A stretch of DNA of 64,000 nt, taken from positions 83,667 through 147,666 of the forward strand of contig CAIVJR010000005.1 of the NCBI GenBank assembly GCA_903906305.1, in the 5' to 3' direction. Both the position numbers and the translations under genes were made by a program. The notes beneath the pieces are model-generated. The model was not told the DNA's origin and ran no database searches. It saw only the letters and a program-made list of their open reading frames with translations. The DNA is from an uncultured bacterium. GTDB lineage: Bacteria; Patescibacteriota; Dojkabacteria; SC72. The stretch's first letter is position 1. Each line of letters starts with the position of its first letter. Positions 4,748 to 24,933 of the stretch are shown here, piece by piece.

Positions 4748-6751
4748 TTAAATCTTGCCGTTTTGAACCATCCAAGCTATCATTTCCTTCATAATCTTGA
4801 CGGCGTTGAGACTCTCACCACCATCTTCAAGGAATATACTAAAGGAATATTTAGGATTGTCATATGGGAAGAAACCACCTACCCATGCATGTGTATGCTC
4901 GTAGTTACCCTTTTTGTCTAATGCACCGAACTCTGCAGTACCAGTTTTAGCAGCTACAACAGTTCCTAAATTAGCCAATGAGGATATTGACGCCCTCTCC
5001 CCATTAACCGCAGACCACATACCCTCTTTTGCGATTTTAAAAGCTTCTTTCTTAGCAATATTGCTCTGTAATATTTCCACAGGAATTTCTACTTTGTTCC
5101 CCTCTTCATCCATGAAGTACTTTGCAATATGTGGTTTGTAGAGGGTTCCCTCGTTAGCGATTGCTCCCATCCAGTTAGACATCTGGATTGGAGTAACTAA
5201 ACCAATTCCTTGACCAATGACAGAGTTACATGAATCGCCCTCAGGATACCAGATGGGATCTAACCATGGACTGGTGGAATTAGCTAACATGAGCTTGTTT
5301 GCAGGAGATGGTACCCTTCCCGCCATCTCACCAGGTATATCTATCCCTGTAATTCTTCCAATTCCAAATTTGTCTAAGTAAGGTACTAGAGAATTCATAT
5401 CCCAATGCCTAATGAGTTCACAGAAATATATATTTGAGGAAACAGTAAGTGCACCAACAACATTTACAGTACCATATGCATGATTGTGATATTCCTGAAA
5501 TGAAGCACCATTGGAGAAGGTATAGTTGGAGGTACTGGTATATTGAGTATATTTAGTAATGGCACCAGCATCTAAAGCTGCAGTAGCTACCATTGTTTTG
5601 AATGTAGAGCCTGCAGGAACCTGTGCAGCTATGGATCTATTCATCAATGGATTAGCTTTGTCATTGAGAAGTTTTGAGTAGTCAGCAACTGATATCCCAC
5701 CAATGAACAAATTGTTGTCATATGTAGGATATGTAACCATGGCTAGGATTTCACCCGTATTAACATCTTGGATGATTCCTGCGCCTCCTGTGGCTTTAGA
5801 GTTACTTACGCCCGTCTGTAATGCTTCGTACAACTTATTTTGTATCGTCATATCCAATGTAAGGTACAGGTTCTTTCCAGAGATTGGAGTTTTGATTGTT
5901 AAACCCTCTTGTGATATCTTTTTACCCAATGAATCCACCTCCCAGACCATCTGTCCATCTTCTCCCGCGAGTTGTTCATCATATTCGCGTTCAAACCCTG
6001 TACGGCCAACTACGTCAGTAGAATTAAGATAGCCTATCGATTCTAAATCCTCAGCAGTCACGTCACCTGTATATCCAAGGATTGATGAAAGGACATTCTT
6101 GTATGGATATGAACGTTTACTCCCGTCATCTATATATATACCAGGTAAATTCTCAGTAGCAGCTTTAATTTGAATTATCTCCTCGTTGTTTAGATCTGAA
6201 GCAATGAGGATATCAGTGAAGTATGGGCTTTGCGCATGTATCTTTAACACTCGCTCTATTATTGACCCATATTCAACCTCCTTGTCATCAGAAACCTTCT
6301 TCCATCGCGTACCTAGTATACCCTCCAGGGTATCTGATGTACTTTGTAATTTCGCATTATCTACCTCTCCCTCTACCAAATATCTATCTATCATTACATA
6401 TAGCCCCACAGAAGCCACATTTTCGACAAGTTTAACGCCATTACGGTCAAACATAACCCCACGATATGCGGGGATACTCTCTTTCCTAATCTGGTTGTTC
6501 TCCGACTTTGCCAGCATCTCCTCTCCTTTTACAATCTGAAGTGAACTAAGTTGGAGAAAAAGCACAGTAAACAGTACAAAAAAGAGTATGAAGACAATCA
6601 AATAGTTCCACGGAGAGCCCTCTGAGTACCCCGGAGTTGATTTCCAAAGCTTCTTAGCACTCTCCTTAAGGTTAATCTCCTTTATGCCATTGATTCCCTT
6701 GACCTTCTTCTTGTTCTTTGATTGTATGCTTTTTGAAAATTTTAAATCCAT
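4748..6751 (-). CDS. mrdA: penicillin-binding protein 2 (elongasome transpeptidase)
   Basis: 667 aa, N-terminal TM, dimerisation domain, transpeptidase motifs (STFK, SxN, KTG: AKTGTAE). Lies downstream of mreBCD. Confidence 0.85.
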   Translation of the reverse strand: MDLKFSKSIQSKNKKKVKGINGIKEINLKESAKKLWKSTPGYSEGSPWNYLIVFILFFVLFTVLFLQLSSLQIVKGEEMLAKSENNQIRKESIPAYRGVMFDRNGVKLVENVASVGLYVMIDRYLVEGEVDNAKLQSTSDTLEGILGTRWKKVSDDKEVEYGSIIERVLKIHAQSPYFTDILIASDLNNEEIIQIKAATENLPGIYIDDGSKRSYPYKNVLSSILGYTGDVTAEDLESIGYLNSTDVVGRTGFEREYDEQLAGEDGQMVWEVDSLGKKISQEGLTIKTPISGKNLYLTLDMTIQNKLYEALQTGVSNSKATGGAGIIQDVNTGEILAMVTYPTYDNNLFIGGISVADYSKLLNDKANPLMNRSIAAQVPAGSTFKTMVATAALDAGAITKYTQYTSTSNYTFSNGASFQEYHNHAYGTVNVVGALTVSSNIYFCELIRHWDMNSLVPYLDKFGIGRITGIDIPGEMAGRVPSPANKLMLANSTSPWLDPIWYPEGDSCNSVIGQGIGLVTPIQMSNWMGAIANEGTLYKPHIAKYFMDEEGNKVEIPVEILQSNIAKKEAFKIAKEGMWSAVNGERASISSLANLGTVVAAKTGTAEFGALDKKGNYEHTHAWVGGFFPYDNPKYSFSIFLEDGGESLNAVKIMKEMIAWMVQNGKI

Positions 6752-14084: not shown

Positions 14085-14249
14085 ATGGCAAAAGTTAAAA
14101 GAGATCTCATCGCTTTGAAATGTACAGAATGTGATAGCAAGAACTACACTGATTACAAAACAAAGAATATAAAGGAGAAGATGGAAATGAAGAAGTATTG
14201 TCAGGTATGTCAAAAGCATACAGTGCATAAGGAGACCAAAATAAAATAG
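14085..14249 (+). CDS. rpmG: 50S ribosomal protein L33
   Basis: 54-aa ORF MAKVKRDLIALKCTECDSKNYTDYKTKNIKEKMEMKKYCQVCQKHTVHKETKIK with two CxxC pairs, not in the ORF track because under 60 aa. Lies upstream of tRNA-Trp-secE-nusG. Confidence 0.8.
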   Translation: MAKVKRDLIALKCTECDSKNYTDYKTKNIKEKMEMKKYCQVCQKHTVHKETKIK

Positions 14250-15614: not shown

Positions 15615-16301
15615 ATGAAAAGAGGAAAAAAATATATTAAGACAACAAAAGGATTAGACAGAGAACAGTCATATACTGTTGCAGAAGGTATTAAGAAAGT
15701 TAAGACCCTCTCCTACTCTAACTTTGTAGGTACATTAGAATTACATGTTGATGTTAAATTACCTAAGGACAGAGATCCTAAGTCAATCAAGGGAGCAATC
15801 TCTCTTCCTAATGCTAGTGGTAACAAGGTTGTTAGAGTTGCAGTATTTGCTACTCCTGACAAAGATGAGGCAGCAAAAGCAGCTGGTGCAGATTTAGTAG
15901 GTATGGAGCAATTGATGAAGGATATTAAGGCTGGAAAGATTGAATTTGATGTAGCTATTGCTACTCCTGCAGTTATGCCTAAGCTTGCAGTACTTGGTAA
16001 AGAGTTAGGCCCTAAAGGATTAATGCCAAGTCCTAAGAATGGTACAGTTACTGATGATATTGCAAAGGCTGTTTCTGAATACAAAAAAGGTAAACAGACA
16101 TTTGCATGTGATGACTCTGGAGTTATACATTTAAATGTAGGTAAATTAGATATGGATGATGCTAAATTGGTAGAAAATGTACACGCTGGCGTTACCTCTA
16201 TTGAAGAAGTATTAGGTAAACCTGTAGATCAGATTCTACAGAAGATGCATCTTGCTCCTACAATGGGTGCAAGTGTTAAGATATCCTACTCTAAAGCATA
16301 G
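15615..16301 (+). CDS. rplA: 50S ribosomal protein L1
   Basis: 228 aa with the L1 signature (VDVAIATPAVMPKLAVLGKELGPKGLMPSPKNGTVT). Confidence 0.9.
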   Translation: MKRGKKYIKTTKGLDREQSYTVAEGIKKVKTLSYSNFVGTLELHVDVKLPKDRDPKSIKGAISLPNASGNKVVRVAVFATPDKDEAAKAAGADLVGMEQLMKDIKAGKIEFDVAIATPAVMPKLAVLGKELGPKGLMPSPKNGTVTDDIAKAVSEYKKGKQTFACDDSGVIHLNVGKLDMDDAKLVENVHAGVTSIEEVLGKPVDQILQKMHLAPTMGASVKISYSKA

Positions 16302-16325
16302 TAGATATTACATATTGTAAATGAA

Positions 16326-16351
16326 AGACCTCCGTAAGGGGGTCTTTTTGT
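16326..16351 (+). terminator. rho-independent terminator after rplA
   Basis: agacctcc-gtaa-gggggtct hairpin followed by a TTTTTG run. Confidence 0.5.
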
Positions 16352-16450
16352 TTATATATCTTCACAAGATGTATTCTATAGGATATAATGTGAATGTCTT
16401 GTTGCTCTTAAGAAGTCTGAAAATCATTATAAAAAGGCGGAGAATACATC

Positions 16451-16807
16451 ATGTGTTATAAAGTAGGACAAGAATTAGTACTAAAGCTAATCGTTGCAAG
16501 AGAGTATGGCAATTGTGCACACTACACACAAGTGGGTGGACACGGTCCAGATTTTCTGGTCCTCCCAGACAAAACGATGAAAGCCTGCAATTCAGATCCC
16601 AACCTCTTTTATCATGAAAGAGAAGAATATGTTTTAATCCATGGAATTAAAATTCCGTTGGAATCGGGATTTGAAAAAGTAACTGATAACTCTCGAAAGG
16701 TTGTTTCAAAAGGTGCAAAGTTCTCTATCACCTTGATTCTTTACAAACAAACAGCCCCAGAAAAAGAATCTGCTACTTTCAGAATTAAGTCGGTTAGTCT
16801 GGCTTAA
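16451..16807 (+). CDS. orphan hypothetical protein (118 aa) inserted between rplA and rplJ
   Basis: Intact ORF preceded by aaaggcggag RBS-like sequence. No recognisable motif. GC above neighbours. Confidence 0.4.
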   Translation: MCYKVGQELVLKLIVAREYGNCAHYTQVGGHGPDFLVLPDKTMKACNSDPNLFYHEREEYVLIHGIKIPLESGFEKVTDNSRKVVSKGAKFSITLILYKQTAPEKESATFRIKSVSLA

Positions 16808-16857
16808 CGTTACTCATTATTGAATTAGACTTTCTTAGGAACAAAATAGACAGAGGG

Positions 16858-16936
16858 TGCGCTAATAGTCGGATTACCTGAAGGTAACTCGAGAACCATT
16901 CAGGTTCACTATTATTAACAATATCTATTAGCGCGC
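16858..16936 (+). ncRNA. candidate structured RNA / nested hairpin element in the intergenic region
   Basis: Perfect 10-bp outer stem gcgctaatag / ctattagcgc (16859-16868 / 16925-16934) enclosing an inner 7-bp stem acctgaa / ttcaggt (16876-16882 / 16899-16905). It sits in a 255-nt non-coding gap. Confidence 0.3.
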
Positions 16937-17062
16937 TCTCAGCACCATCCTATTTATCACAATATATCTTTACAATTCCATTTCTATAGGATAGAATATC
17001 TAGGCAACAAGTATACCGTTGCACCTTTCAAACCAAAAGAATATCTGTAGTTAGGGAGAAAC

Positions 17063-17563
17063 TTGATGGACACAACAATTCTTGACGTTGAAAAATCCGT
17101 AGAACTAGAAACACAGCAAGAAATAGATTACTCTGGAAGTGACGGAGATCCGTTAATTCCATGGGAATGTCTATGTGAAGAACATCAAAGAAACAAAAAA
17201 TCCCACAGGTGGCACAAATCCTCCATGACCATAATCTCCGTAAGTGAGATTGATAAAAAGCATGTGAGAGTACATACTCCCAAGGGAGTATATATTTGCC
17301 GAATCACAAAATTCGACCAATATAAGGTTATAAGGGTTGTACGAACCAAAAAATCCTTTAAACCAAAAGATCCTCCCATTGAACTAGAAGATGAATTCCT
17401 CCCTGTCGTTATCGCCGAATGTGAGTTCTTGGAAGACAATTGGAAGGAGGTCCTTGCAGAGCAGAATCGGGAACAAAATCCCCAAGGAGAACAGCAAACA
17501 CTTAGAGTTATCTCTCCTGAAGCATTCAAAGCTGCAATGGACAAACGACAACCCAAAGCTTAA
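17063..17563 (+). CDS. orphan hypothetical protein (166 aa) inserted between rplA and rplJ
   Basis: Intact ORF with charged, Cys/His-containing N-terminal segment (WECLCEEHQRNKKSHRWH). No recognisable family. Confidence 0.4.
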   Translation: MMDTTILDVEKSVELETQQEIDYSGSDGDPLIPWECLCEEHQRNKKSHRWHKSSMTIISVSEIDKKHVRVHTPKGVYICRITKFDQYKVIRVVRTKKSFKPKDPPIELEDEFLPVVIAECEFLEDNWKEVLAEQNREQNPQGEQQTLRVISPEAFKAAMDKRQPKA

Positions 17564-17614
17564 GCCAAGGGTATTGTCTTCGTTTCGCAACCGTTATACT
17601 TGTTGAAAAAAGGA

Positions 17615-17701
17615 AGGTGGACCTAGTAATAGAATGTGATCTATAAAAGAAGCTGAGCTCTGCGCAGAGTTTCTTTTAAAAATCATTTCTTAGGTCCACC
17701 T
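17615..17701 (+). promoter_or_regulatory. long inverted repeat (12-bp arms) enclosing a weak terminator-like hairpin and T-run, upstream of rplJ (possible attenuator / L10-leader-like region)
   Basis: aggtggacctag (17615-17626) pairs with cttaggtccacct (17689-17701). Inside are the palindrome ctctgcgcagag and tttcttttaaaaa. Confidence 0.35.
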
Positions 17702-17830
17702 GCACGTCCCCATCTATTGACCCTACCCCATTCTACTGATATAATCCAAGCCATATATTAACCTAAGAAACAAGGTATAGAATAAATCCTTGTGAGGTAA
17801 ATAGTGAATTCAATTAAATAAATAATAAAT

Positions 17831-18352
17831 ATGTCAAAAACACGTTCCCAAAAAACGGAGTTATTAGATGGATATAAAGAAATCCTTAAGAACAAGGTTG
17901 GATATCTTTTAATCAACTCTGAAAAGACAGATACTAAGACTGTAACAGGCCTTAAGATCCAGTTAAAAGGTGTAGGTGCTAACTACGAAGTAGTAAAGAA
18001 CAGTATCTTTAAAATAGCTCTACAAGAAACAGAGCAACCATTAAAAACACAAGAATTTGATGGACCTACAGCAATCATATTTTTTGATGAAGATCCTACA
18101 GCTCCTGCAAAATTAGTAAAAGAAGCACAAAAAGTTACCAAACTTTTTGAAGCAAGAGGTGGTGTATATGAAGGTGAATTTTTAACAGCAGAAAAGGTAA
18201 TGCAATTAGCAGATATTCCTTCAAGAGAAGTATTACTTGGTAAGTTACTGGGCACAATGGTCGCCCCACTCTCTGGCTTTATGAATGCCGTTACTGGCAA
18301 TGTCAGAGGTTTAACAATGGTTCTAAAGGGCATTTCTGAAAAGGATGCTTAA
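17831..18352 (+). CDS. rplJ: 50S ribosomal protein L10
   Basis: 173 aa, L10 family, position upstream of rplL. Confidence 0.9.
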   Translation: MSKTRSQKTELLDGYKEILKNKVGYLLINSEKTDTKTVTGLKIQLKGVGANYEVVKNSIFKIALQETEQPLKTQEFDGPTAIIFFDEDPTAPAKLVKEAQKVTKLFEARGGVYEGEFLTAEKVMQLADIPSREVLLGKLLGTMVAPLSGFMNAVTGNVRGLTMVLKGISEKDA

Positions 18353-18856: not shown

Positions 18857-18867
18857 TCATAGACTAC

Positions 18868-19078
18868 CAAGGTCAGACCTAGGACAGTCCTCAATAATAT
18901 GTGATGCGCTTTTTTGTTGGATTGACGGACTTATCAGCCACTTTTTGTAGTTTGGTGCCATGCTAATTGGGCCTGTTTTTCTAATTATCTACACAGTACC
19001 CAATGTGCATTTGTCCTTACCTTCCATAGGTTTGTTGGGTTAATCGGTTGGGGAGGACTGACCTAGGTCAGTCCTTCG
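18868..19078. repeat. pair of related 20-nt palindromic motifs (centre CCTAGG) about 185 bp apart flanking a non-coding segment (REP/MITE-like)
   Basis: aggtcagacctaggacagtcct at ~18869-18890 and the perfect palindrome ggactgacctaggtcagtcc at ~19056-19075 followed by ttcgggg. Confidence 0.35.
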
Positions 19079-19174
19079 GGGTGTTAGATATTTATTAACT
19101 CCCATCGACAAATACACCCCAAATTAAGTATAATCTAACCAGAATCTGCCTTAATTTAATACACATATATTTCA

Positions 19175-19849
19175 ATGACCTATACACCTTTTACTCAATG
19201 GATGATTACGACTGGAGTACCACAACAAGTATTGGAATTGCTACTAGCTGTAATGATTGTAGCAACAATTGTAAGCATAGCTAGATATATAATTGGATCT
19301 AAAACATATGGAATATATGCACCAATAATATTGGCAATCGCATACTCATATACAGGTTTAAGATATGGATTAGCAATAACCTTGATAGTGATTTTGACTA
19401 CCCTACTCTCATACACCATACTACGAAGAGTACGTATGCATTACATAGCTAGAATAGCAGTAAATTACTGTCTGTTAGCTATAATGTTAGTAGTCTTCTT
19501 CATAGTCATAGGACAATTTGGTTTTGGTTTAGACAATATGGCAAATATCTCTGGACTTGCAGCAATATCAATTGCAGCACTTTCAGACTTCTTCATAAAA
19601 CAATATGTAAAGAAATCATTTAAATCTTCTGTCTTGATCCTCTTTAGCACTGTTTTCATTGCCACACTCGGATGGTTTGTCATAACCCGAGATGTCATAA
19701 CAACATATTTCTTAAACAACCTTTGGATTGTTCCAATCTTAATCATATTGAATATCCTCATTGGGCAGTTTACTGGCCTTAGAATCAAAGATCTCTTTAG
19801 ATTTAAATCAGTTATTCAGAATAAGGATAAAGATAATGTTCAGAAATAG
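19175..19849 (+). CDS. 7-TM membrane protein (7TM_transglut-like, no transglutaminase domain) that is the first gene of the ATP-grasp operon
   Basis: 224 aa with seven predicted hydrophobic helices. Its 3' end overlaps the start of the next gene by 14 nt. Confidence 0.6.
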   Translation: MTYTPFTQWMITTGVPQQVLELLLAVMIVATIVSIARYIIGSKTYGIYAPIILAIAYSYTGLRYGLAITLIVILTTLLSYTILRRVRMHYIARIAVNYCLLAIMLVVFFIVIGQFGFGLDNMANISGLAAISIAALSDFFIKQYVKKSFKSSVLILFSTVFIATLGWFVITRDVITTYFLNNLWIVPILIILNILIGQFTGLRIKDLFRFKSVIQNKDKDNVQK

Positions 19850-21293
19850 GATAAAAGATGTATTAGGACTAAACAGACGTAATCAAGAATACGTTCGTCC
19901 ATACAACCACCCAAAATCTAAAGCGTTAGCAGATAATAAGATTGCTACAAAAAAGCTTCTTGCAAAGGAAGGTATCAACACATCTGAGGTATACAAACTC
20001 ATTAAAAATCGTAAACAACTAGCCTTCTTAGATTGGGAATCATTACCAAAAAGTTTTGTAATCAAACCTAATCAAGGTACTGGTGGAAATGGAATTCTAG
20101 TAATCTATGGTAGAAAGAGGGGCGAATTAGCATGGATAAGGCCAGGCGGAGAAGTATTAAGTAAAAAAGATCTCTCCTTACACATTGAGAATATCCTCGA
20201 AGGAAGATTTTCAATGGGTGAAAGAAGCGATATCGCAATAATTGAAGAAAGAGTTAGAACTGATTCATTCCTAAAACAATACTCATACAAAGGTGTACCC
20301 GATATTAGAATCATATGTTTCAATCTCGTCCCCATTATGGCAATGATGCGAATACCTACCAAACGATCCAACGGTACTGCAAATCTACATTCTGGAGCTA
20401 TATGTACCGGTATAGACATAGCAACAGGCATAACCACCTACTCTATGCATATGAATAGCAAATCATTGTTGAGCGATACATATGAGATGATAGATAATAC
20501 TCAAGATTTGAAGATTAACAAAAAGCTTTCAGGTGTTCAGATACCTGATTGGGACAAGATCTTGGATATTGCAGTAAGATGCCAAAGAGCAAGTAAGCTT
20601 GGCTATACAGGTGTCGATATAGCATTAGACGCAGACAAAGGCCCTATCGTTTTTGAATTAAATGCTAGACCTGGCCTTGGAATCCAAGTCGCAAATCAAG
20701 CGGGTTTAAGATGGAGATTAGAAAAAGTAAAAGGATTGGAAGTGAAGAGTATTAAACACGGTATAAGGGTAGCGAAGAATCTGTTTGGTGGAGAAGTAGA
20801 AGACAGTATTGAAGCTATTAGTGGAAGAAAGGTTGTTAACATCAACGAGAAAATAACCCTGTATTACAAATCATACAAAGAAGGTAGCAAAAATGAGAAT
20901 AAAGACAGAGAGATTACTACCGCATTTGTAGATACAGGAGCTATAACCTCCCGTATCTCTCGAAGCTATGTATCCAGAATGGGATATTTCGAAACCATGA
21001 GACAGTTTGACTATCTAAAATGCCCTAAGAACTTCCTCGCTTTTAAGGATGCACAAGAATACATAGACGAATATAGTAAAAACATGACAGAGGATGCATA
21101 CATCATACGTTTAGCTAAAATCTTTGAGGATGGGCAAATAGTTGTCCGACCTGTTATCATTGTTAAAGTAAGAATATCAGGCGAAATACGTGATCTTGAA
21201 ATGATCGTAACTGAAGATAGTACACACTCTGTCACATTAGGAAGAAACGACCTCAGAGACTATTTAATTGATACAAGTAAAACATTTAAATAA
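19836..21293 (+). CDS. alpha-L-glutamate-ligase-related ATP-grasp protein (TIGR02291/RimK-related N-terminus) with a C-terminal DTGA retropepsin-like domain
   Basis: Start at MFRNRIKDVLGLNRRNQEYVRPYNHPKS...ADNKIATKKLLAKEGI, the characteristic G-x-N-R-R-N...Y-N N-terminus of the RimK-related family. ATP-grasp core (FVIKPNQGTGGNGILV ... DIALDADKGPIVFELNARPGL). C-terminal ~150 aa contain FVDTGAITS (20922-20948). Confidence 0.8.
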   Translation: MFRNRIKDVLGLNRRNQEYVRPYNHPKSKALADNKIATKKLLAKEGINTSEVYKLIKNRKQLAFLDWESLPKSFVIKPNQGTGGNGILVIYGRKRGELAWIRPGGEVLSKKDLSLHIENILEGRFSMGERSDIAIIEERVRTDSFLKQYSYKGVPDIRIICFNLVPIMAMMRIPTKRSNGTANLHSGAICTGIDIATGITTYSMHMNSKSLLSDTYEMIDNTQDLKINKKLSGVQIPDWDKILDIAVRCQRASKLGYTGVDIALDADKGPIVFELNARPGLGIQVANQAGLRWRLEKVKGLEVKSIKHGIRVAKNLFGGEVEDSIEAISGRKVVNINEKITLYYKSYKEGSKNENKDREITTAFVDTGAITSRISRSYVSRMGYFETMRQFDYLKCPKNFLAFKDAQEYIDEYSKNMTEDAYIIRLAKIFEDGQIVVRPVIIVKVRISGEIRDLEMIVTEDSTHSVTLGRNDLRDYLIDTSKTFK

Positions 21294-22282
21294 TGAAAAC
21301 ATACGAAGAATATCTAAAAGAAGCAGGAAATGTCCATTTAGCATACTATGTCGAAGCTGCTGACATCTTAGGAATCAAATATTCCATCGTTGTTAGAAGC
21401 CTAATTGCAAAGTTCGAAGTTGAAGACAAGCATTGGTTCATTATAAATACTGTTACACCCCTAACCTCCTCCCCAAGTGCTACCATTTCAAAACGAAAGA
21501 ACCTTACCAATATGGTATTAAGCTCATATGGTGTAGATGTCCCAAAGCAAGAGGGATTAACAAGCCCCATTGATGCTATAAAATTCTTTAATAAGTATAA
21601 AAACATAGTCATAAAGCCTGCTCAACAGCTTGGTGGAAAAGGTATTACCCTACTTCCAGAGACAGAAGACCAGGTTATATCTGCTTTCAACGAAGCATTC
21701 GAGAAAGATAGATCAAAAGGAGAAATTAAGGTATTGGGAGAAGAATTCATCAAAGGAGAAAACTATCGATTCTTAGTAGTTGGCGAAAACGTTGTTGGAA
21801 TAGTATGGAGAAAGGCCCCAATAGTTATCGGCAATAGCAAAAATACTATAAGAGAACTAATTGATACATCAAACAAAGAGCGTAGCCTCCTCGTTCTCAA
21901 ATCTATTCCCATAGATTCAGAAGTACAAACTAGATTAAAAAATGCTGACCTCACATTAGATTCAATTCCAGACGAAGGCCAAGTTATAACCCTTAGATAC
22001 AATTGTAATCTGACTACTGGTGGTACTACAGAAGAGTGTGCTTCCATTGTAGATCCATACTACAAGGAGCTCGCTGTAAAGGCCGTTAAGGCTCTTGATT
22101 TAGAATTCGGGGGTGTAGATATCATTGCAGAGGATATAACTAAACCAGGGAAGTGTGGAATTAATGAAATCAACTACAATCCTGGATTAAGATTACATTA
22201 CAAAGCTGACAAGGGTGAGAAGGTTAAGGTCGCTGTCCCTATTATGGAATATATTAGAGATAAGTATACAAATAAATTATAA
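21293..22282 (+). CDS. stand-alone cyanophycin-synthetase G-domain-like ATP-grasp ligase
   Basis: GENYRFLVVGENVVGIVWRKAPIVIGNSKNTIRELID ... NCNLTTGGTTEECASIVDP ... GVDIIAEDI matches CphA ATP-grasp motifs. TAATG start/stop overlap with the upstream gene. Confidence 0.75.
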   Translation: MKTYEEYLKEAGNVHLAYYVEAADILGIKYSIVVRSLIAKFEVEDKHWFIINTVTPLTSSPSATISKRKNLTNMVLSSYGVDVPKQEGLTSPIDAIKFFNKYKNIVIKPAQQLGGKGITLLPETEDQVISAFNEAFEKDRSKGEIKVLGEEFIKGENYRFLVVGENVVGIVWRKAPIVIGNSKNTIRELIDTSNKERSLLVLKSIPIDSEVQTRLKNADLTLDSIPDEGQVITLRYNCNLTTGGTTEECASIVDPYYKELAVKAVKALDLEFGGVDIIAEDITKPGKCGINEINYNPGLRLHYKADKGEKVKVAVPIMEYIRDKYTNKL

Positions 22283-22292
22283 GATAAACATT

Positions 22293-23984
22293 ATGAGTAA
22301 CGTGCAAGTATTACAAGGCCTAAATCTAGATTCAGAGATATCTGTCATAAAAATTAATGTACATAAGACCGATACTATCGTTAGATATCTTGAACTTCTT
22401 AAAAATTTTCACCCAATATTCATGCGTGAATACAAATTTGAAAATGACATCTTAAGCATTCACACAATGATAACCTCGTTGTGGAGAGAACTTGGAGAAA
22501 TAATAATCAAACTTTCAGAAGGAAAGATCGATTACGAAGAAGCAAGAAAACACACTCTTGAAGAAGTCCTTAAACAACGAGTAGCCTCTATGTCTACTAT
22601 TCCTCTAATCTTTTTTGCAAACAAAATGAAATATGAGGTAACACCAACGCTATTAGAAGACGAAAGGATAAAATACAATACAGGGCCCAATAGAATATAT
22701 ACTTTAGGCGTAGGTCGTAATTCCCAAATTATATATTCTATATCCTCTAGTAAAGATTCTAAAGAAGCAAAAGAAATTCAAAGAGATAAATATCTTACAA
22801 ACCTTATGATTCAGCGATTAGGTCTCCCTATTCCAAAATGGCAAGTCCTAGACAATATATCACAGATTGAAGAAGTCTGGAGTAGCTATGAAAAACCTGT
22901 CGTCATAAAACCAACAGGTCTTACAGGTGGGCATGGTGTTGTAGTTGGTATAGAAACGCTAGAGAAAGCAAAGGAGGCATTTAAATTTGCAAAAGAAGCA
23001 ACTCAGGATAGAATCAGAGAAGAATGGCAGCAAAAGATCATGATACAAGAACAAATCTCAGGTGAAGATTACAGGCTTCTCGTTATAAATGGCCATCTAG
23101 AAATCGCAACCAAGCGTATTCCAGCCTTCATCATAGGAGATGGCAAGCATACAATTGAAGAATTGATCGATATAACCAATACAGATCCTCGAAGAGATGT
23201 TACTAACCCTACTCATACATTAAAACCTATTAAGATTGATGATCCTCTAAAGTCATATATCAAAGATCAGAAATTAACCCTTACCTCTATTCCTAAGAAA
23301 GAGCAGAAAGTTAATGTGAGAAAGGTTGCAAGCATGAGCCAAGGCGGCATAACCGAAGATTTTACGGATAAGGTAAGCCCAGAAATTAAAGCAATTGTAG
23401 AGAGCATCGCATCATCGATTCATGCATTTACTCTAGGGGTCGATGTCATGTGTAAAGATCTTTCCAAACCATTAACAAAAGACAACGGTGCAATACTAGA
23501 AGTGAACACAATGCCTGAAGCATATCTTAATACCTATCCTGTCATTGGTGAATCCCGAGAATACGTATTCGACAAATATATAAAAGCTCTTTTAGAAGGC
23601 AATAACACAAAGCAGATAGTAATTGTAGGTAATAGCACAGAAGATGTACCTACTCTACTAAGAAAGAAATCGATCTTTGGATCATACCTCAAACAAGATG
23701 CCGTTATCGGAGAATACAAAGATGGAGAGATTAGAATTAATGGGTTGGATATAAATAAGGGCCTAGAGAAATGGAAAGCAATAGAAGGCCTTAAAGTAAA
23801 TGCATCTTTAGATGCAATGATCATACATCATAGAAATGTAGAAGAGGTTAGAGAAACAGGCTTAGGATTTAATAAAATTGACCTTTTAATGGTAGAATCT
23901 AAATATTTTGAAGATAGAGAATTTAAAAAAGCTATCCGAAGATACCAAATGAAAGGATTAATATCTAAAATAAAGAAATTCTAA
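22293..23984 (+). CDS. CphA-like ATP-grasp ligase with an N-terminal ~200-aa domain and a C-terminal ~120-aa extension, no Mur-ligase (M) domain
   Basis: Internal Met MSNVQVL at 22293. GEDYRLLVINGHLEIATKRIPAFIIGDGKHTIEELID ... MSQGGITEDFTDKV ... GVDVMCKDL is close to the CphA G-domain. Confidence 0.75.
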   Translation: MSNVQVLQGLNLDSEISVIKINVHKTDTIVRYLELLKNFHPIFMREYKFENDILSIHTMITSLWRELGEIIIKLSEGKIDYEEARKHTLEEVLKQRVASMSTIPLIFFANKMKYEVTPTLLEDERIKYNTGPNRIYTLGVGRNSQIIYSISSSKDSKEAKEIQRDKYLTNLMIQRLGLPIPKWQVLDNISQIEEVWSSYEKPVVIKPTGLTGGHGVVVGIETLEKAKEAFKFAKEATQDRIREEWQQKIMIQEQISGEDYRLLVINGHLEIATKRIPAFIIGDGKHTIEELIDITNTDPRRDVTNPTHTLKPIKIDDPLKSYIKDQKLTLTSIPKKEQKVNVRKVASMSQGGITEDFTDKVSPEIKAIVESIASSIHAFTLGVDVMCKDLSKPLTKDNGAILEVNTMPEAYLNTYPVIGESREYVFDKYIKALLEGNNTKQIVIVGNSTEDVPTLLRKKSIFGSYLKQDAVIGEYKDGEIRINGLDINKGLEKWKAIEGLKVNASLDAMIIHHRNVEEVRETGLGFNKIDLLMVESKYFEDREFKKAIRRYQMKGLISKIKKF

Positions 23985-23985
23985 T

Positions 23986-24933
23986 ATGAAATACCTCATC
24001 ATAGACAAAAGACAGCGTGTAGAAGTAGCTACAATGGGTGAAATACCTACAGGATCAGCAAGATTAGTAGAAGAATTAGATAAAAAAAATATTCCTCATG
24101 ATTTTGCATATAACGATGAAATAGAGTTCTTGTTTCATAATGGTTCCACGGTTATAAAAGTGGCAGGACATGACGTAACAGAGTACAGCAACATCATTCT
24201 TAGAGGTCATTCCTTAGGTGACGAACGTGAGTATCAATACAAGAGATTCATCATAGACTACGTTGATCAATATAATAGAGACAACCCAGAAAAAAAAGTG
24301 ATCATTCAGAATTCTAAGGCAATCAAGAATCTTCCATATTACAATAAGATAGCCTTTGCAATGCTATGTTCAAAAAATAACCTCCCCTACTTTAATACAT
24401 ATTTCCATACCAATGGGGAATATTTAAAAGATAGAGATATGTTAAAGGAATATCCATTGATTATCAAAGAATACTCGGGAATGAATAGAACTGAAATGAT
24501 TGAGGGTAAAGAGAAGATCAAGAAGAATGTGTTTAAATTAGAGAAAGATGAGGATTACAAGCAAGAAAATCTTGATGGACAAGATCTTTCCCATTTCTTC
24601 ATACAGGAATTTTCTGATGCTGGTGAAGATTACAGAATATTTGTTAAGTTAGGGAAAGTAATAGCCGGATGGAAAAGAAAGGCTGTTAATGGCTTTATGA
24701 CTGTAAGCAAGGGTGAGTACGAGATGTACAATACTCCTAACGAGGAGATAACTGAGATTGCTGAGAAGATGGCATCCGTATTAGAAGCTGACTTTATGGC
24801 CGTAGACTTTATGTATATGAATGGGAAGGCATGTATACAAGAGATAAGCTTCCATCCTGGATATAAGGCATATGAGACTAAGATTGAGGGAGAGCCAGTG
24901 AATATAGCTGAAGCTATAGTTACTGCTTTTTAA
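23986..24933 (+). CDS. RimK-like ATP-grasp ligase
   Basis: PLIIKEYSG ... FIQEFSDAGEDYRIFVKLGKVIAGWKRKA ... DFMAVDFMYMNGKACIQEISFHPG follows the RimK/glutathione-synthetase pattern. Start is 1 nt after the upstream stop. Confidence 0.7.
   Translation: MKYLIIDKRQRVEVATMGEIPTGSARLVEELDKKNIPHDFAYNDEIEFLFHNGSTVIKVAGHDVTEYSNIILRGHSLGDEREYQYKRFIIDYVDQYNRDNPEKKVIIQNSKAIKNLPYYNKIAFAMLCSKNNLPYFNTYFHTNGEYLKDRDMLKEYPLIIKEYSGMNRTEMIEGKEKIKKNVFKLEKDEDYKQENLDGQDLSHFFIQEFSDAGEDYRIFVKLGKVIAGWKRKAVNGFMTVSKGEYEMYNTPNEEITEIAEKMASVLEADFMAVDFMYMNGKACIQEISFHPGYKAYETKIEGEPVNIAEAIVTAF

What the first reader, a model, noticed from the sequence alone, without database searches (positions are those of the whole stretch)
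16302..17830. Two orphan ORFs and a structured non-coding region inserted inside the rplKA-rplJL ribosomal protein cluster
**Seen:**
- rplA ends with its own terminator at ~16326-16351 and rplJ starts at 17831.
- The 1.5 kb between them is normally ~150-250 nt of L10 leader. Here it holds two intact ORFs of unknown family (118 and 166 aa, the second with a WECLCEEH...HRWH Cys/His cluster) and slightly higher GC.
- Between the ORFs lies a 255-nt gap containing a nested hairpin (10-bp perfect outer stem, 7-bp inner stem).
- A 12-bp-arm inverted repeat with an internal T-rich terminator-like hairpin sits at 17615-17701.

**Inference:** either a small inserted cassette or a lineage-specific addition to the L10/L12 autoregulatory leader. 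Its position immediately upstream of rplJL, and 0.4 kb upstream of the ATP-grasp operon, makes a functional link to ribosome modification conceivable but unsupported.
Basis: seen in the sequence. Interest (0 to 1): 0.5.

Follow-up and report, generated by a model that had tools for sequence, protein, structure and literature searches.

The report
Swappable small-gene slots between rplA and rplJ
Between two ribosomal-protein operons of a Candidatus Dojkabacteria (CPR) genome lie two real, separately expressed small genes of unknown families, in a site where close relatives carry quite different small genes behind the same promoters and hairpins.

Summary
The 1.5 kb between rplA and rplJ holds two intact ORFs and two long hairpins. 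Both ORFs are real genes: dN/dS is 0.08-0.14 and changes are mostly at third codon positions. Neither matches any Pfam, NCBIfam, PHROG, PADLOC or PDB family.

They are not part of the L10 leader. rplJ keeps its own promoter (TTGACC-17-TATAAT, found in 45 of 46 related loci). It also keeps a short, covarying kink-turn leader hairpin (17757-17802).

Each ORF is its own unit: promoter, 5' stem-loop, Shine-Dalgarno sequence, ORF, then a terminator inside a ~90-nt hairpin.

Across 47 relatives the rplA-rplJ gap ranges from 122 to 2776 nt. Genomes whose flanking ribosomal proteins are 94-98% identical carry unrelated or 17-30% identical genes in the same slots, and synonymous divergence disagrees with the flanks. 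This points to allele replacement by recombination.

In 23 of 47 loci a gap ORF, in most of them the one just upstream of rplJ, starts with an invariant four-cysteine motif. ORF2 has a Cys/His variant of it.

Protein function is unknown. A link to the ATP-grasp operon is not supported.

The parts
15615..16301 (+). rplA (L1), the conserved left flank
   Evidence: Pfam Ribosomal_L1 in syntenic loci. 83-95% aa identity to relatives.
16323..16353 (+). Intrinsic terminator of the rplKA unit
   Evidence: 11-bp stem with 5 G-C pairs, then a T-run. Conserved in all close relatives.
16354..16412 (+). P1 island: promoter-like TTCACA-17-TATAAT (16361-16389) plus the conserved start of the 5' UTR
   Evidence: 11 of 12 consensus matches. 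Left copy of a 36-nt direct repeat. Conserved across the close clade. Homology to L001 ends at 16412.
16451..16807 (+). ORF1, slot-1 gene: 118-aa all-beta soluble protein of a novel family
   Evidence: dN/dS 0.084 and codon-position changes 17/9/47 against L004. Only 6 hits among 1.84 billion representative proteins. AlphaFold2 pLDDT 86, pTM 0.73. No convincing fold match.
16849..16943 (+). Slot-1 3' element: long outer stem enclosing a terminator-like inner hairpin (16893-16907)
   Evidence: -39.5 kcal/mol, z = -6.0. Homologous elements with compensatory arm changes, and an inner GGC-type stem followed by TTTTATTTCTAT, occur in relatives.
16949..17022 (+). P2 island: promoter-like TTTACA-17-TAGAAT (16969-16997), predicted 5' end of the transcript, and 5' stem-loop GCAAC...GTTGC (17004-17022)
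   Evidence: 91-95% identical over 57-64 nt in relatives that carry different downstream genes. Its 25-mer retrieves metagenome contigs with at least four different ORF types behind it.
17066..17563 (+). ORF2, slot-2 gene: 165-aa soluble protein with a conserved C-x-C...H-x2-H cluster
   Evidence: dN/dS 0.13-0.14. Homologues P0001, P0002 and P0005-P0008; all four looked up (P0001, P0002, P0006, P0007) lie upstream of rplJ, and where the contig reaches far enough also downstream of rplA. AlphaFold2 model unreliable, pLDDT 48.
17612..17704 (+). Slot-2 3' element: long hairpin with an inner palindrome CTCTGCGCAGAG flanked by A- and T-runs (shaped like a bidirectional terminator)
   Evidence: -40.1 kcal/mol, z = -7.0. 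In about 30 of 41 related loci the best long inverted repeat upstream of rplJ ends 109-130 nt before the rplJ ATG. Compensatory changes between relatives.
17717..17745 (+). P3, the rplJ promoter: TTGACC-17-(TG)ATATAAT
   Evidence: 11 of 12 matches plus an extended -10. Present in 45 of 46 loci, with the -10 box 75-93 nt from the ATG.
17757..17802 (+). rplJ leader hairpin with a kink-turn-like internal loop (UAA 17764-17766; G17767/A17768 opposite G17794/A17795) and a UAAAU loop; putative L10(L12)4 binding site
   Evidence: 9 of 12 pairs change on both sides. 92.8% of cells are paired, against 29-48% when the partner columns are slid. The covariance model gives a single hit in the window and finds an outgroup not used to build it. 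Known target features are taken from PMC4538822.
17831..18352 (+). rplJ (L10), the conserved right flank

Best explanation
The 1.5 kb is not leader RNA. It is an accessory-gene hotspot between two separate transcription units: rplKA, which ends in its own terminator, and rplJL, which has its own promoter and kink-turn leader.

The hotspot is built from two stand-alone expression slots. Each slot runs: sigma-70-type promoter, short 5' stem-loop, Shine-Dalgarno sequence, small ORF, then an intrinsic-terminator-like hairpin enclosed in a long outer stem.

The scaffolds (promoters, the start of the 5' UTR, the hairpins, the rplJ promoter and leader) and the ribosomal genes on either side are conserved. 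The coding inserts are drawn from a pool of old, mutually unrecognisable small-protein genes. These are exchanged between lineages by homologous recombination, probably anchored in the conserved flanks and scaffolds.

ORF1 is a soluble all-beta protein of a new family. ORF2 belongs to a class-wide series of small proteins encoded just upstream of rplJ. These usually start with an invariant four-Cys metal-binding motif; ORF2 has a Cys2His2 variant.

Shown here: the genes are real. The slots are modular. The locus is hypervariable and disagrees with the phylogeny of its flanks. rplJ has an independent promoter and leader. The Cys motif is enriched.

Inferred: promoter and terminator activity, and recombination as the exchange mechanism. 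Also inferred is that the hairpins insulate the autoregulated rplJL unit from read-through.

My guess at protein function (about 30%) is that these proteins take part in a fast co-evolving interaction, such as immunity against a toxin or phage factor, rather than in core ribosome function.
For: Real genes: dN/dS 0.084 for ORF1 and 0.13-0.14 for ORF2, with third-position changes dominant.

Modularity: promoter-like sites at 16361-16389, 16969-16997 and 17717-17745, two of them a 36-nt direct repeat. Each ORF is followed by a very stable hairpin, z = -6 and -7. In relatives the inner stem is followed by a T-run.

Sharp homology breaks: the window against L001 loses similarity at 16412 and regains it at 16949. 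The window against L004 loses it at 17010 and regains it at 17717. The breaks fall just after one -10 box and just before the next -35 box.

Hypervariability: genome pairs with flanks 94-98% identical (dS 0.23-0.42) have slot genes of different families or only 17-30% identity.

Incongruence: ORF1 dS is 1.19 against 0.32 for the flanks (window vs L009). ORF2 dS is 0.64 against 1.22 for the flanks (window vs L001). Between the window and L094 the hairpins, promoters and leader are 95-100% identical. ORF2 is only 53% identical in protein and rplJ is about 80% identical in DNA.

One promoter, many genes: the P2 25-mer retrieves contigs with at least four ORF types behind it.

Class-wide variation: the gap is 122-2776 nt in 47 loci. 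It includes empty sites and unrelated cargo such as an NAD-dependent epimerase.

Independent rplJ unit: promoter in 45 of 46 loci, and a covarying kink-turn hairpin.

Cys motif: found in 23 of 47 loci, against about 1% of other ORFs once L33 is excluded. The four Cys are among the few invariant columns in families A, B and C.

Locus-bound: every homologue with readable context lies here. There are no extra copies in the window and no phage relatives.
Against: There are no expression data. Promoters and terminators are consensus matches supported only by conservation; in the 5.5-kb scan promoter-like matches were no more frequent than in shuffled sequence (17 found, 18.9 expected).

The long hairpins show no bias towards folding on the + strand. 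An RNA role cannot therefore be told apart from a DNA-level palindrome.

Profile comparisons do not show that the slot families are related to each other. 'One series of Cys proteins' therefore rests on position and motif only. ORF2 itself lacks the canonical four-Cys motif.

All comparison genomes are metagenome assemblies. Recombination is inferred from mosaic patterns and from dS values that are saturated in several comparisons.

Confidence: 0.68

Rival explanations
1. The small proteins are lineage-specific factors for the ribosomal stalk or for translation or transcription control. For example, a small zinc-finger protein might act on L10/L12, on the GTPase-associated centre, or on the rplJL promoter. 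It would be kept next to rplJ for co-regulation.
For: A small Cys-motif gene occupies the position directly upstream of rplJ in about half of 47 class-wide loci. Its metal ligands are invariant. The long hairpin often overlaps the -35 box of the rplJ promoter.
Against: The gene is absent from five loci and reduced to a 22-aa remnant in L022. Its sequence turns over completely between genomes whose L10 is 95-98% identical. pI ranges from 4.1 to 10.0. The hairpin arm type does not follow the protein family, and L050 has the hairpin without any ORF. The same gap can hold unrelated cargo such as an epimerase.
Confidence: 0.15
2. An integron-like cassette array, or the remnant of another mobile element: ORF plus imperfect hairpin units inserted by site-specific recombination.
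For: Each unit is an ORF followed by an imperfect inverted repeat about 90 nt long. ORFs are exchanged as units.
Against: Each unit has its own promoter. No GTTRRRY-type core site lies at the hairpin ends (sequence). No integrase or transposase is called within +/-10 kb in the syntenic, Pfam-annotated locus L004. The hairpins and ORFs are single-copy in the 64-kb window and in all loci fetched. The breakpoints lie in the promoters and UTRs, not at the hairpins.
Confidence: 0.05
3. ORF1 and ORF2 form a two-gene toxin-antitoxin or defence module.
For: Two adjacent small genes of unknown families in a variable region. The weak best fold match of ORF1 is an immunity protein.
Against: The genes have separate promoters with a terminator hairpin between them. 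The slot types assort independently: G+F, G+S9, D+F, D+A, D+H. Neither ORF nor eight other gap proteins tested hit PADLOC; neither ORF hit Pfam or PHROGs significantly, and the small gap proteins tested against Pfam had no significant hit.
Confidence: 0.05
4. The region is an extended L10/L12 autoregulatory leader and the ORFs are incidental or spurious.
For: The position is directly upstream of rplJ, and the RNA is highly structured.
Against: Both ORFs are under purifying selection. A conserved promoter lies downstream of them in 45 of 46 loci. A compact covarying leader follows that promoter. Rfam finds no L10_leader here even at E <= 10, while it does find one in a Firmicute control locus.
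Confidence: 0.02

Closest known systems
Horizontal-transfer hotspots flanked by core genes, and allelic-replacement loci under balancing selection (general concept, from my own knowledge)
   Same: Highly conserved flanking genes. Discrete, deeply diverged alternative contents at one chromosomal position. Content phylogeny that disagrees with the flanks. Occasional empty sites.
   Different: The site lies inside the secE-nusG-rplKAJL cluster. The units are tiny: one small ORF each. Each unit is framed by a conserved promoter, 5' stem-loop and terminator-hairpin scaffold that stays in place while the coding part changes.
Integron gene cassettes and integrase-less attC clusters (CALINs)
   Same: Serial units of one small ORF followed by an imperfect hairpin about 90 nt long. 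The ORFs have diverse, mostly unknown functions.
   Different: There is no integrase and no R'/R'' core sites. Every unit has its own promoter. The hairpins look like terminators. Exchange appears to use flanking homology rather than site-specific recombination.
Ribosomal protein L10 leader (Rfam RF00557; the rplJL leaders of B. subtilis and E. coli)
   Same: The 17757-17802 hairpin lies in the rplJ 5' UTR. It contains a kink-turn-like tandem G-A / A-G loop and unpaired UAA. PMC4538822 reports these features as the L10(L12)4 recognition elements.
   Different: It is much shorter: an ~85-nt leader against 213 nt in B. subtilis. There is no obvious terminator/antiterminator pair. The RF00557 model does not detect it. 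It applies only to the last 115 nt of the finding, not to the ORFs.
Orphan immunity-gene arrays against interbacterial toxins (for example Tni2-type immunity proteins)
Small zinc-ribbon ribosomal proteins such as L33 (rpmG, 14085-14249 in this window)
   Same: Small proteins with four Cys in CxxC pairs, encoded in the same ribosomal gene cluster.
   Different: L33 is conserved and basic, and its CxxC pairs are about 22 residues apart. The gap proteins have pairs 4-8 residues apart at the extreme N-terminus. They vary from acidic to basic, turn over rapidly and can be lost.

Membership tests
Rfam L10_leader (RF00557) | Match to the covariance model at or above the gathering score | tested here: not met
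   No hit at the gathering score or at E <= 10 over 16250-17900. Positive control: 53.2 bits in the Oscillospiraceae locus L084.
L10(L12)4-binding leader (functional class) | A hairpin in the rplJ 5' UTR with a kink-turn motif and unpaired UAA, conserved by covariation | tested here: met
   G30/A31 and A61 are invariant and G60 nearly so. UAA sits at the bulge and in the loop. 9 of 12 pairs covary. Feature definition from PMC4538822. Protein binding itself was not tested.
Integron gene cassette / attC | attC with R''/R' core sites (RYYYAAC ... GTTRRRY) at the cassette boundary | tested here: not met
   No such cores flank either hairpin (sequence). Homology breakpoints lie next to the promoters, not at the hairpin ends.
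Integron gene cassette / attC | An integron integrase nearby, or repeated attC copies elsewhere in the genome | tested here: not met
   No recombinase among the Pfam-annotated genes within +/-10 kb in the syntenic locus L004. The hairpins are single-copy in the window and in all loci. The rest of the genome was not available.
Rho-independent terminator | G+C-rich stem-loop followed directly by a U-run | tested here: met
   This holds for the rplA terminator at 16323-16353.
Rho-independent terminator | The same feature in the two long hairpins | tested here: inconclusive
   The inner stems are followed by T-rich runs (16893-16907; CTCTGCGCAGAG followed by TTTCTTTT). Relatives show clearer GGC...TTTTATTTCTAT. 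The outer stems are not followed by a U-run.
Type II toxin-antitoxin pair | A co-transcribed, co-inherited gene pair with recognisable toxin or antitoxin domains | tested here: not met
   Separate promoters and an intervening terminator hairpin. The two slots assort independently. No domain hits.
Diversity-generating retroelement target | Template/variable repeat pair and a reverse transcriptase | tested here: not met
   No direct repeats of that kind in 16250-17900. Divergence is spread over the whole ORF rather than confined to a variable region. The reverse transcriptase was checked only through the neighbouring genes.
Core-gene-flanked recombination hotspot / hypervariable locus | Conserved flanks, alternative unrelated contents in close relatives, and incongruent divergence | tested here: met
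Four-Cys small metal-binding protein (series upstream of rplJ) | N-terminal CxxC-x(4-8)-CxxC or CP motif with invariant Cys | tested here: inconclusive
   Met in families A, B and C, in the L009 slot-2 protein and in L097. ORF2 has C-x-C-x9-H-x2-H instead, and its sister subgroup has CDLCxDxKC...C. Metal binding was not tested.

The most novel reading that the evidence does not exclude
The conserved promoter / 5' stem-loop and terminator-hairpin scaffolds form a dedicated cassette-exchange platform that needs no integrase. It would be embedded in some of the most conserved DNA of the genome. Dojkabacteria lineages would use it to keep swapping a pool of ancient, mutually unrelated small metal-binding proteins under frequency-dependent selection. 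One possible role is immunity against toxins or phage factors aimed at the translation machinery. The four-Cys gene upstream of rplJ would then be a new class-wide family of conflict or regulatory proteins.
Probability: 0.18. Interest if true: 0.8.

Novelty: new variant of a known kind. Interest (0 to 1): 0.55.

Why it matters
CPR/Patescibacteria have tiny genomes, and most of their lineage-specific small proteins are unexplained. This locus has a fixed address, which is easy to find in any Dojkabacteria assembly. At that address a diverse pool of small genes, many of them four-Cys proteins, is presented behind constant expression signals and turns over far faster than the surrounding genome.

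That makes it a tractable entry point for three questions. How does recombination shape reduced genomes? What are CPR small proteins for? Do such organisms carry compact immunity or regulatory modules?

As a by-product, the work defines a compact kink-turn L10 leader that Rfam does not cover.

If the plain reading holds, this is a neat but not surprising example of an accessory-gene hotspot.

Tried and rejected
- **Family searches.** Neither ORF has a significant hit in Pfam, NCBIfam, PHROGs or PADLOC. Representatives of most other gap families also have no significant Pfam or PADLOC hit.
- **PDB profile searches.** Families A, B, C and F give nothing below E = 0.6.
- **Rfam.** No hit at the gathering score or in E-value mode.
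- **ORF2 structure.** The AlphaFold2 model was too poor to use (pLDDT 48).
- **Homology between slot families.** hhalign linked only D with L016 (87%), the Cys motif of C with L009 slot 2 (69%), and weakly G with L016 (37%). The expanded G family against D gave 6.8%. I therefore do not claim that all slot genes are one superfamily.
- **Strand of the long hairpins.** The test for + strand RNA showed no + strand advantage.
- **Alignment of slot-2 hairpins.** MAFFT put the arms out of register. I report compensatory changes from direct sequence comparison instead.
- **Phage or mobile origin.** There are no relatives in INPHARED or IMG/VR.
- **10-nt complementarity** between the 3' arm of hairpin 2 and the kink-turn 5' strand. 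It is not conserved in relatives with other hairpin classes, so I treat it as unproven.
- **GC content** as a sign of foreign origin. It is within the local range.
Full report
**Check of the observation.**
ORF listing and sequence reading confirm the gene order rpmG, tRNA, secE, nusG, rplK, rplA (15615-16301), then a 1.5-kb gap, then rplJ (17831-18352) and rplL. A canonical terminator follows rplA: an 11-bp stem at 16323-16348 and a T-run.

The gap holds ORF1 (16451-16807, 118 aa; GGAG 8 nt upstream) and ORF2 (165 aa from the ATG at 17066; GGGAG 7 nt upstream). The TTG at 17063 is the mechanical start, but homologues begin MD(T)TIL.

Both long hairpins exist and are far more stable than shuffled sequence. 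Region 16845-16948 folds at -39.5 kcal/mol (z = -6.0). Region 17605-17712 folds at -40.1 kcal/mol (z = -7.0). The GC rise in ORF2 is within local variation.

These lie in a 36-nt direct repeat that is 78% identical. rplJ has its own TTGACC-17-TGATATAAT at 17717-17745.

**The ORFs are real genes of unknown families.**
Neither protein hits Pfam, NCBIfam, PHROGs or PADLOC significantly.

Searches of 5.8 billion proteins found only a handful of relatives. For ORF2 these are P0001 (91%), P0002 (80%) and, with a profile, P0005-P0008. For ORF1 they are P0003 (82%) and P0004. An exhaustive HMMER search of 1.84 billion representatives with the ORF1 profile gave only six hits.

Nei-Gojobori estimates give dN/dS of 0.084 for ORF1 (window vs L004) and 0.13-0.14 for ORF2 (window vs L001 and L002). 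Substitutions by codon position are 17/9/47 and 18/11/48. These values are similar to those of the neighbouring ribosomal genes.

The ORF2 model is unreliable (pLDDT 48). In its closest subgroup the cluster C-x-C-x9-H-x2-H is conserved. A sister subgroup (L011, P0005, P0006) instead starts with CDLCxDxKC...C.

**Organism and synteny.**
A scan of one genome per species with the rplA protein identifies the source as Candidatus Dojkabacteria (WS6, CPR/Patescibacteria). It returned about 47 related loci.

Every homologue of ORF1 or ORF2 whose context could be read lies in this locus. Where the contig reaches both flanking genes, the homologue sits between rplA and rplJ: L001, L004-L006 and L089. 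Shorter contigs show only part of the context. L002, L007, L008, L090-L092 and L094 carry rplJ downstream, and L093 carries only the P1 promoter upstream.

The window holds no second copy of either ORF or hairpin. There are no relatives in phage or IMG/VR collections.

**The gap is a class-wide variable site.**
In 47 loci the rplA-rplJ distance is 122-2776 nt. Five are under 300 nt, 23 are 300-900 nt and 19 are over 1 kb.

Empty sites show rplA followed by a terminator and then directly by the rplJ promoter and leader (L049, L051, L054). L050 has a long hairpin but no ORF. L022 keeps only a 22-aa remnant.

The cargo falls into many BLAST-unrelated families: A, B, C, D, F (ORF2), G (ORF1), H and singletons. 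It occasionally includes ordinary genes such as an NAD-dependent epimerase.

Profile-profile comparison links only a few of the families. I therefore do not claim common ancestry for them.

**Modular slots and sharp breakpoints.**
BLASTN of the window against L001 (flanking ribosomal proteins about 85% identical) loses homology at 16412 and regains it at 16949. ORF1, its UTR and its hairpin are replaced by another 105-aa gene.

Against L004 (flanks 95% identical) homology is lost at 17010 and regained at 17717. ORF2 and its hairpin are replaced by an unrelated 130-aa Cys-rich gene.

The breaks fall just downstream of one -10 box and just upstream of the next -35 box.

The P1 and P2 islands, including the first ~25 nt of each transcript, are conserved across the close clade. 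The P2 island is 91-95% identical over 57-64 nt whatever gene follows it. The conserved GGCAACA at the start of the slot-2 UTR pairs with a cassette-specific partner to form a 5' stem-loop.

A metagenome scan with the 25-mer spanning the P2 -10 box and UTR start found 11 contigs. The six with a readable ORF downstream carry four types. One is an ORF2-type gene. Two are divergent family-A genes, and one is a new 129-aa four-Cys gene. Two are 88-89-aa genes with no BLAST match to the known families, which by eye resemble family H.

**Hypervariability and incongruence.**
Among nine close genomes, pairs with flanking rplK+rplA+rplJ 94-98% identical (dS 0.23-0.42) have slot genes of different families or only 17-30% identity. 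Examples are L001-L013, L010-L011 and the window against L010, L011 and L089.

Conversely, ORF2 of the window and of L001 is less diverged (dS 0.64) than their flanks (dS 1.22). ORF1 of the window and of L009 is more diverged (dS 1.19) than their flanks (dS 0.32).

Between the window and L094 the two hairpins, P2, P3 and the leader are 95-100% identical. ORF2 is about 55-65% identical in DNA (53% in protein) and rplJ is about 80% identical in DNA.

Slot-1 and slot-2 types occur in many combinations (G+F, G+S9, D+F, D+A, D+H). This argues against a two-component system.

Gradual in-place divergence cannot produce these patterns. Replacement of old alleles by homologous recombination, with a fine-scale mosaic, is the simplest reading. 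It remains an inference.

Many contigs break at this locus, with lengths of only 0.6-1.6 kb. That is what population heterogeneity would cause in assemblies.

**The hairpins.**
Every slot in the relatives examined ends in a comparable long hairpin.

The slot-1 element is homologous across the clade regardless of the ORF family, and its arms show compensatory changes. Examples are GCGCTAATAG/CTATTAGCGC, GAGCTGATAG/CTATCAGCTC and GAGACTAATAG/CTATTAGTCTC. Its inner stem is followed by TTTTATTTCTAT in several relatives, which marks an embedded intrinsic terminator.

The slot-2 element falls into four sequence classes that follow ORF type only partly. Its inner stem also shows compensatory changes: CTACGCGTAG against CTTCGCGAAG, and CTGCGCGCGCAG against CTACGCGCGTAG.

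Across the class, in about 30 of 41 loci the best long inverted repeat upstream of rplJ ends 109-130 nt before the rplJ ATG. In about a dozen loci the right arm ends in TCTCTTG, running into the -35 TTGAC (CAAGAGAGG...CCTCTCTTGAC).

Folding energies show no + strand advantage. RNA-level and DNA-level roles therefore cannot be separated. My reading is terminator-insulators that end the small-gene transcripts before the rplJ promoter.

**The true L10 leader.**
TTGACC-17/18-TATAAT lies 75-93 nt upstream of the rplJ ATG in 45 of 46 loci.

The following ~85 nt are the most conserved non-coding sequence of the region. They contain a hairpin (window 17757-17802) in which 9 of 12 pairs change on both sides. 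In it 92.8% of cells are paired, against 29-48% for slid controls, and 0 of 500 shuffles reach the observed covariation.

Its internal loop has an unpaired UAA. This is followed by invariant G-A on the 5' strand, opposite G-A on the 3' strand (invariant A, G in over 90% of sequences). This is a kink-turn signature, and the apical loop carries UAAAU.

PMC4538822 reports that a kink-turn and an unpaired UAA are the recognition elements of L10(L12)4 in the rplJL leader and in 23S rRNA.

Rfam's RF00557 does not detect this element, although it detects a Firmicute control locus. A covariance model built here gives one hit in the 64-kb window. It also finds the element upstream of rplJ in an outgroup (L056) that was not used to build it. 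It finds nothing in other phyla.

The autoregulatory leader is therefore intact, short and separate from the two ORFs.

**A recurring four-Cys protein upstream of rplJ.**
In 23 of 47 loci a gap ORF begins with CxxC-x(2-25)-Cx(1-5)C. In most of them it is the ORF that ends about 180-255 nt before the rplJ ATG.

Outside the gaps the motif occurs in 58 of 1828 ORFs. Of these, 40 are the genuine zinc-ribbon protein L33, which leaves about 1% background.

In families A, B and C the four Cys are among the few invariant columns. Family B also ends in a conserved EGLxPI, and some family-C members end in EEEE or EEED.

No family has a relative in PDB. pI ranges from 4.1 to 10.0.

The gene is dispensable, turns over quickly and varies widely in charge. 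These points argue against a stoichiometric ribosomal protein, but a regulatory or stalk-associated role cannot be excluded.

**ATP-grasp link.**
The 7TM_transglut plus ATP-grasp operon follows rplL in almost all relatives, including those with empty gaps. Its presence does not depend on ORF1 or ORF2.

**Verdict.**
It is not an expansion of the L10 leader. It is a two-slot, hypervariable small-gene site with conserved expression scaffolds, lying between two ribosomal operons of a CPR bacterium.

The evolutionary and architectural description is well supported. The biochemical function of ORF1 and ORF2 remains unknown. My preferred guess, involvement in a fast co-evolving interaction such as immunity, is weakly supported.

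Noticed in passing
window 18861-19101 (compare L004 12268-13653): The rplL to 7TM_transglut spacer is a second variable site. It is 241 nt here, with a perfect 22-nt palindrome at 19054-19075. L004 has 1386 nt there with two extra ORFs (121 aa on +, 286 aa on -), and L089-L091 carry other ORFs.
   Followed up: partly
window 19175-24000 and loci L009-L056: A 7TM_transglut membrane protein plus three or four ATP-grasp (RimK-like) genes directly follow rplJL in almost all Dojkabacteria loci and in the outgroup L056. This is a class-wide linkage of a peptide-ligase operon to the stalk operon, and its target is unknown.
   Followed up: partly
window 17803-17830: rplJ has no recognisable Shine-Dalgarno sequence. 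Instead an A/T-rich ATTAATTAAATA block before the ATG is conserved across the class, whereas ORF1 and ORF2 have clear GGAG sites.
   Followed up: no
window 17686-17695 versus 17761-17770: The 3' arm of the slot-2 hairpin (TTTCTTAGGT) is exactly complementary to the 5' strand of the kink-turn hairpin (ACCTAAGAAA). In a read-through transcript this could compete with leader folding. It is not conserved in relatives with other hairpin classes.
   Followed up: partly
L022 2342-2692; L050 663-947: L022 keeps only a 22-aa ORF (MSEEERILFFESVLEAEGLNPL), equal to the C-terminal motif of family B without the Cys part. L050 has the long hairpin in front of the rplJ promoter but no ORF.
   Followed up: partly
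family B and C proteins (e.g. L036 6842-7018, L043 6839-6988): Family B proteins end in a conserved EGLxPI. Some family C proteins end in EEEE or EEED, which recalls the Glu tail of S6 that RimK extends, and an ATP-grasp operon lies just downstream of rplJL.
   Followed up: no
L031 (rplA 6001-6678): No rplJ and no leader-model hit lies within 5.5 kb downstream of rplA in this Dojkabacteria contig. The gap may be much larger there, or rplJL may have moved.
   Followed up: no
window 17185-17556 (- strand): A 123-aa antisense ORF lies inside ORF2. It is shorter in L001 (98 aa) and is most likely a shadow ORF rather than a gene.
   Followed up: partly
P0013 (547 aa, from the representative search): A large repetitive beta-rich protein matches the ORF1 profile weakly in four stretches (E = 9e-4). 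The ORF1 fold may occur as a repeat unit in larger proteins.
   Followed up: no
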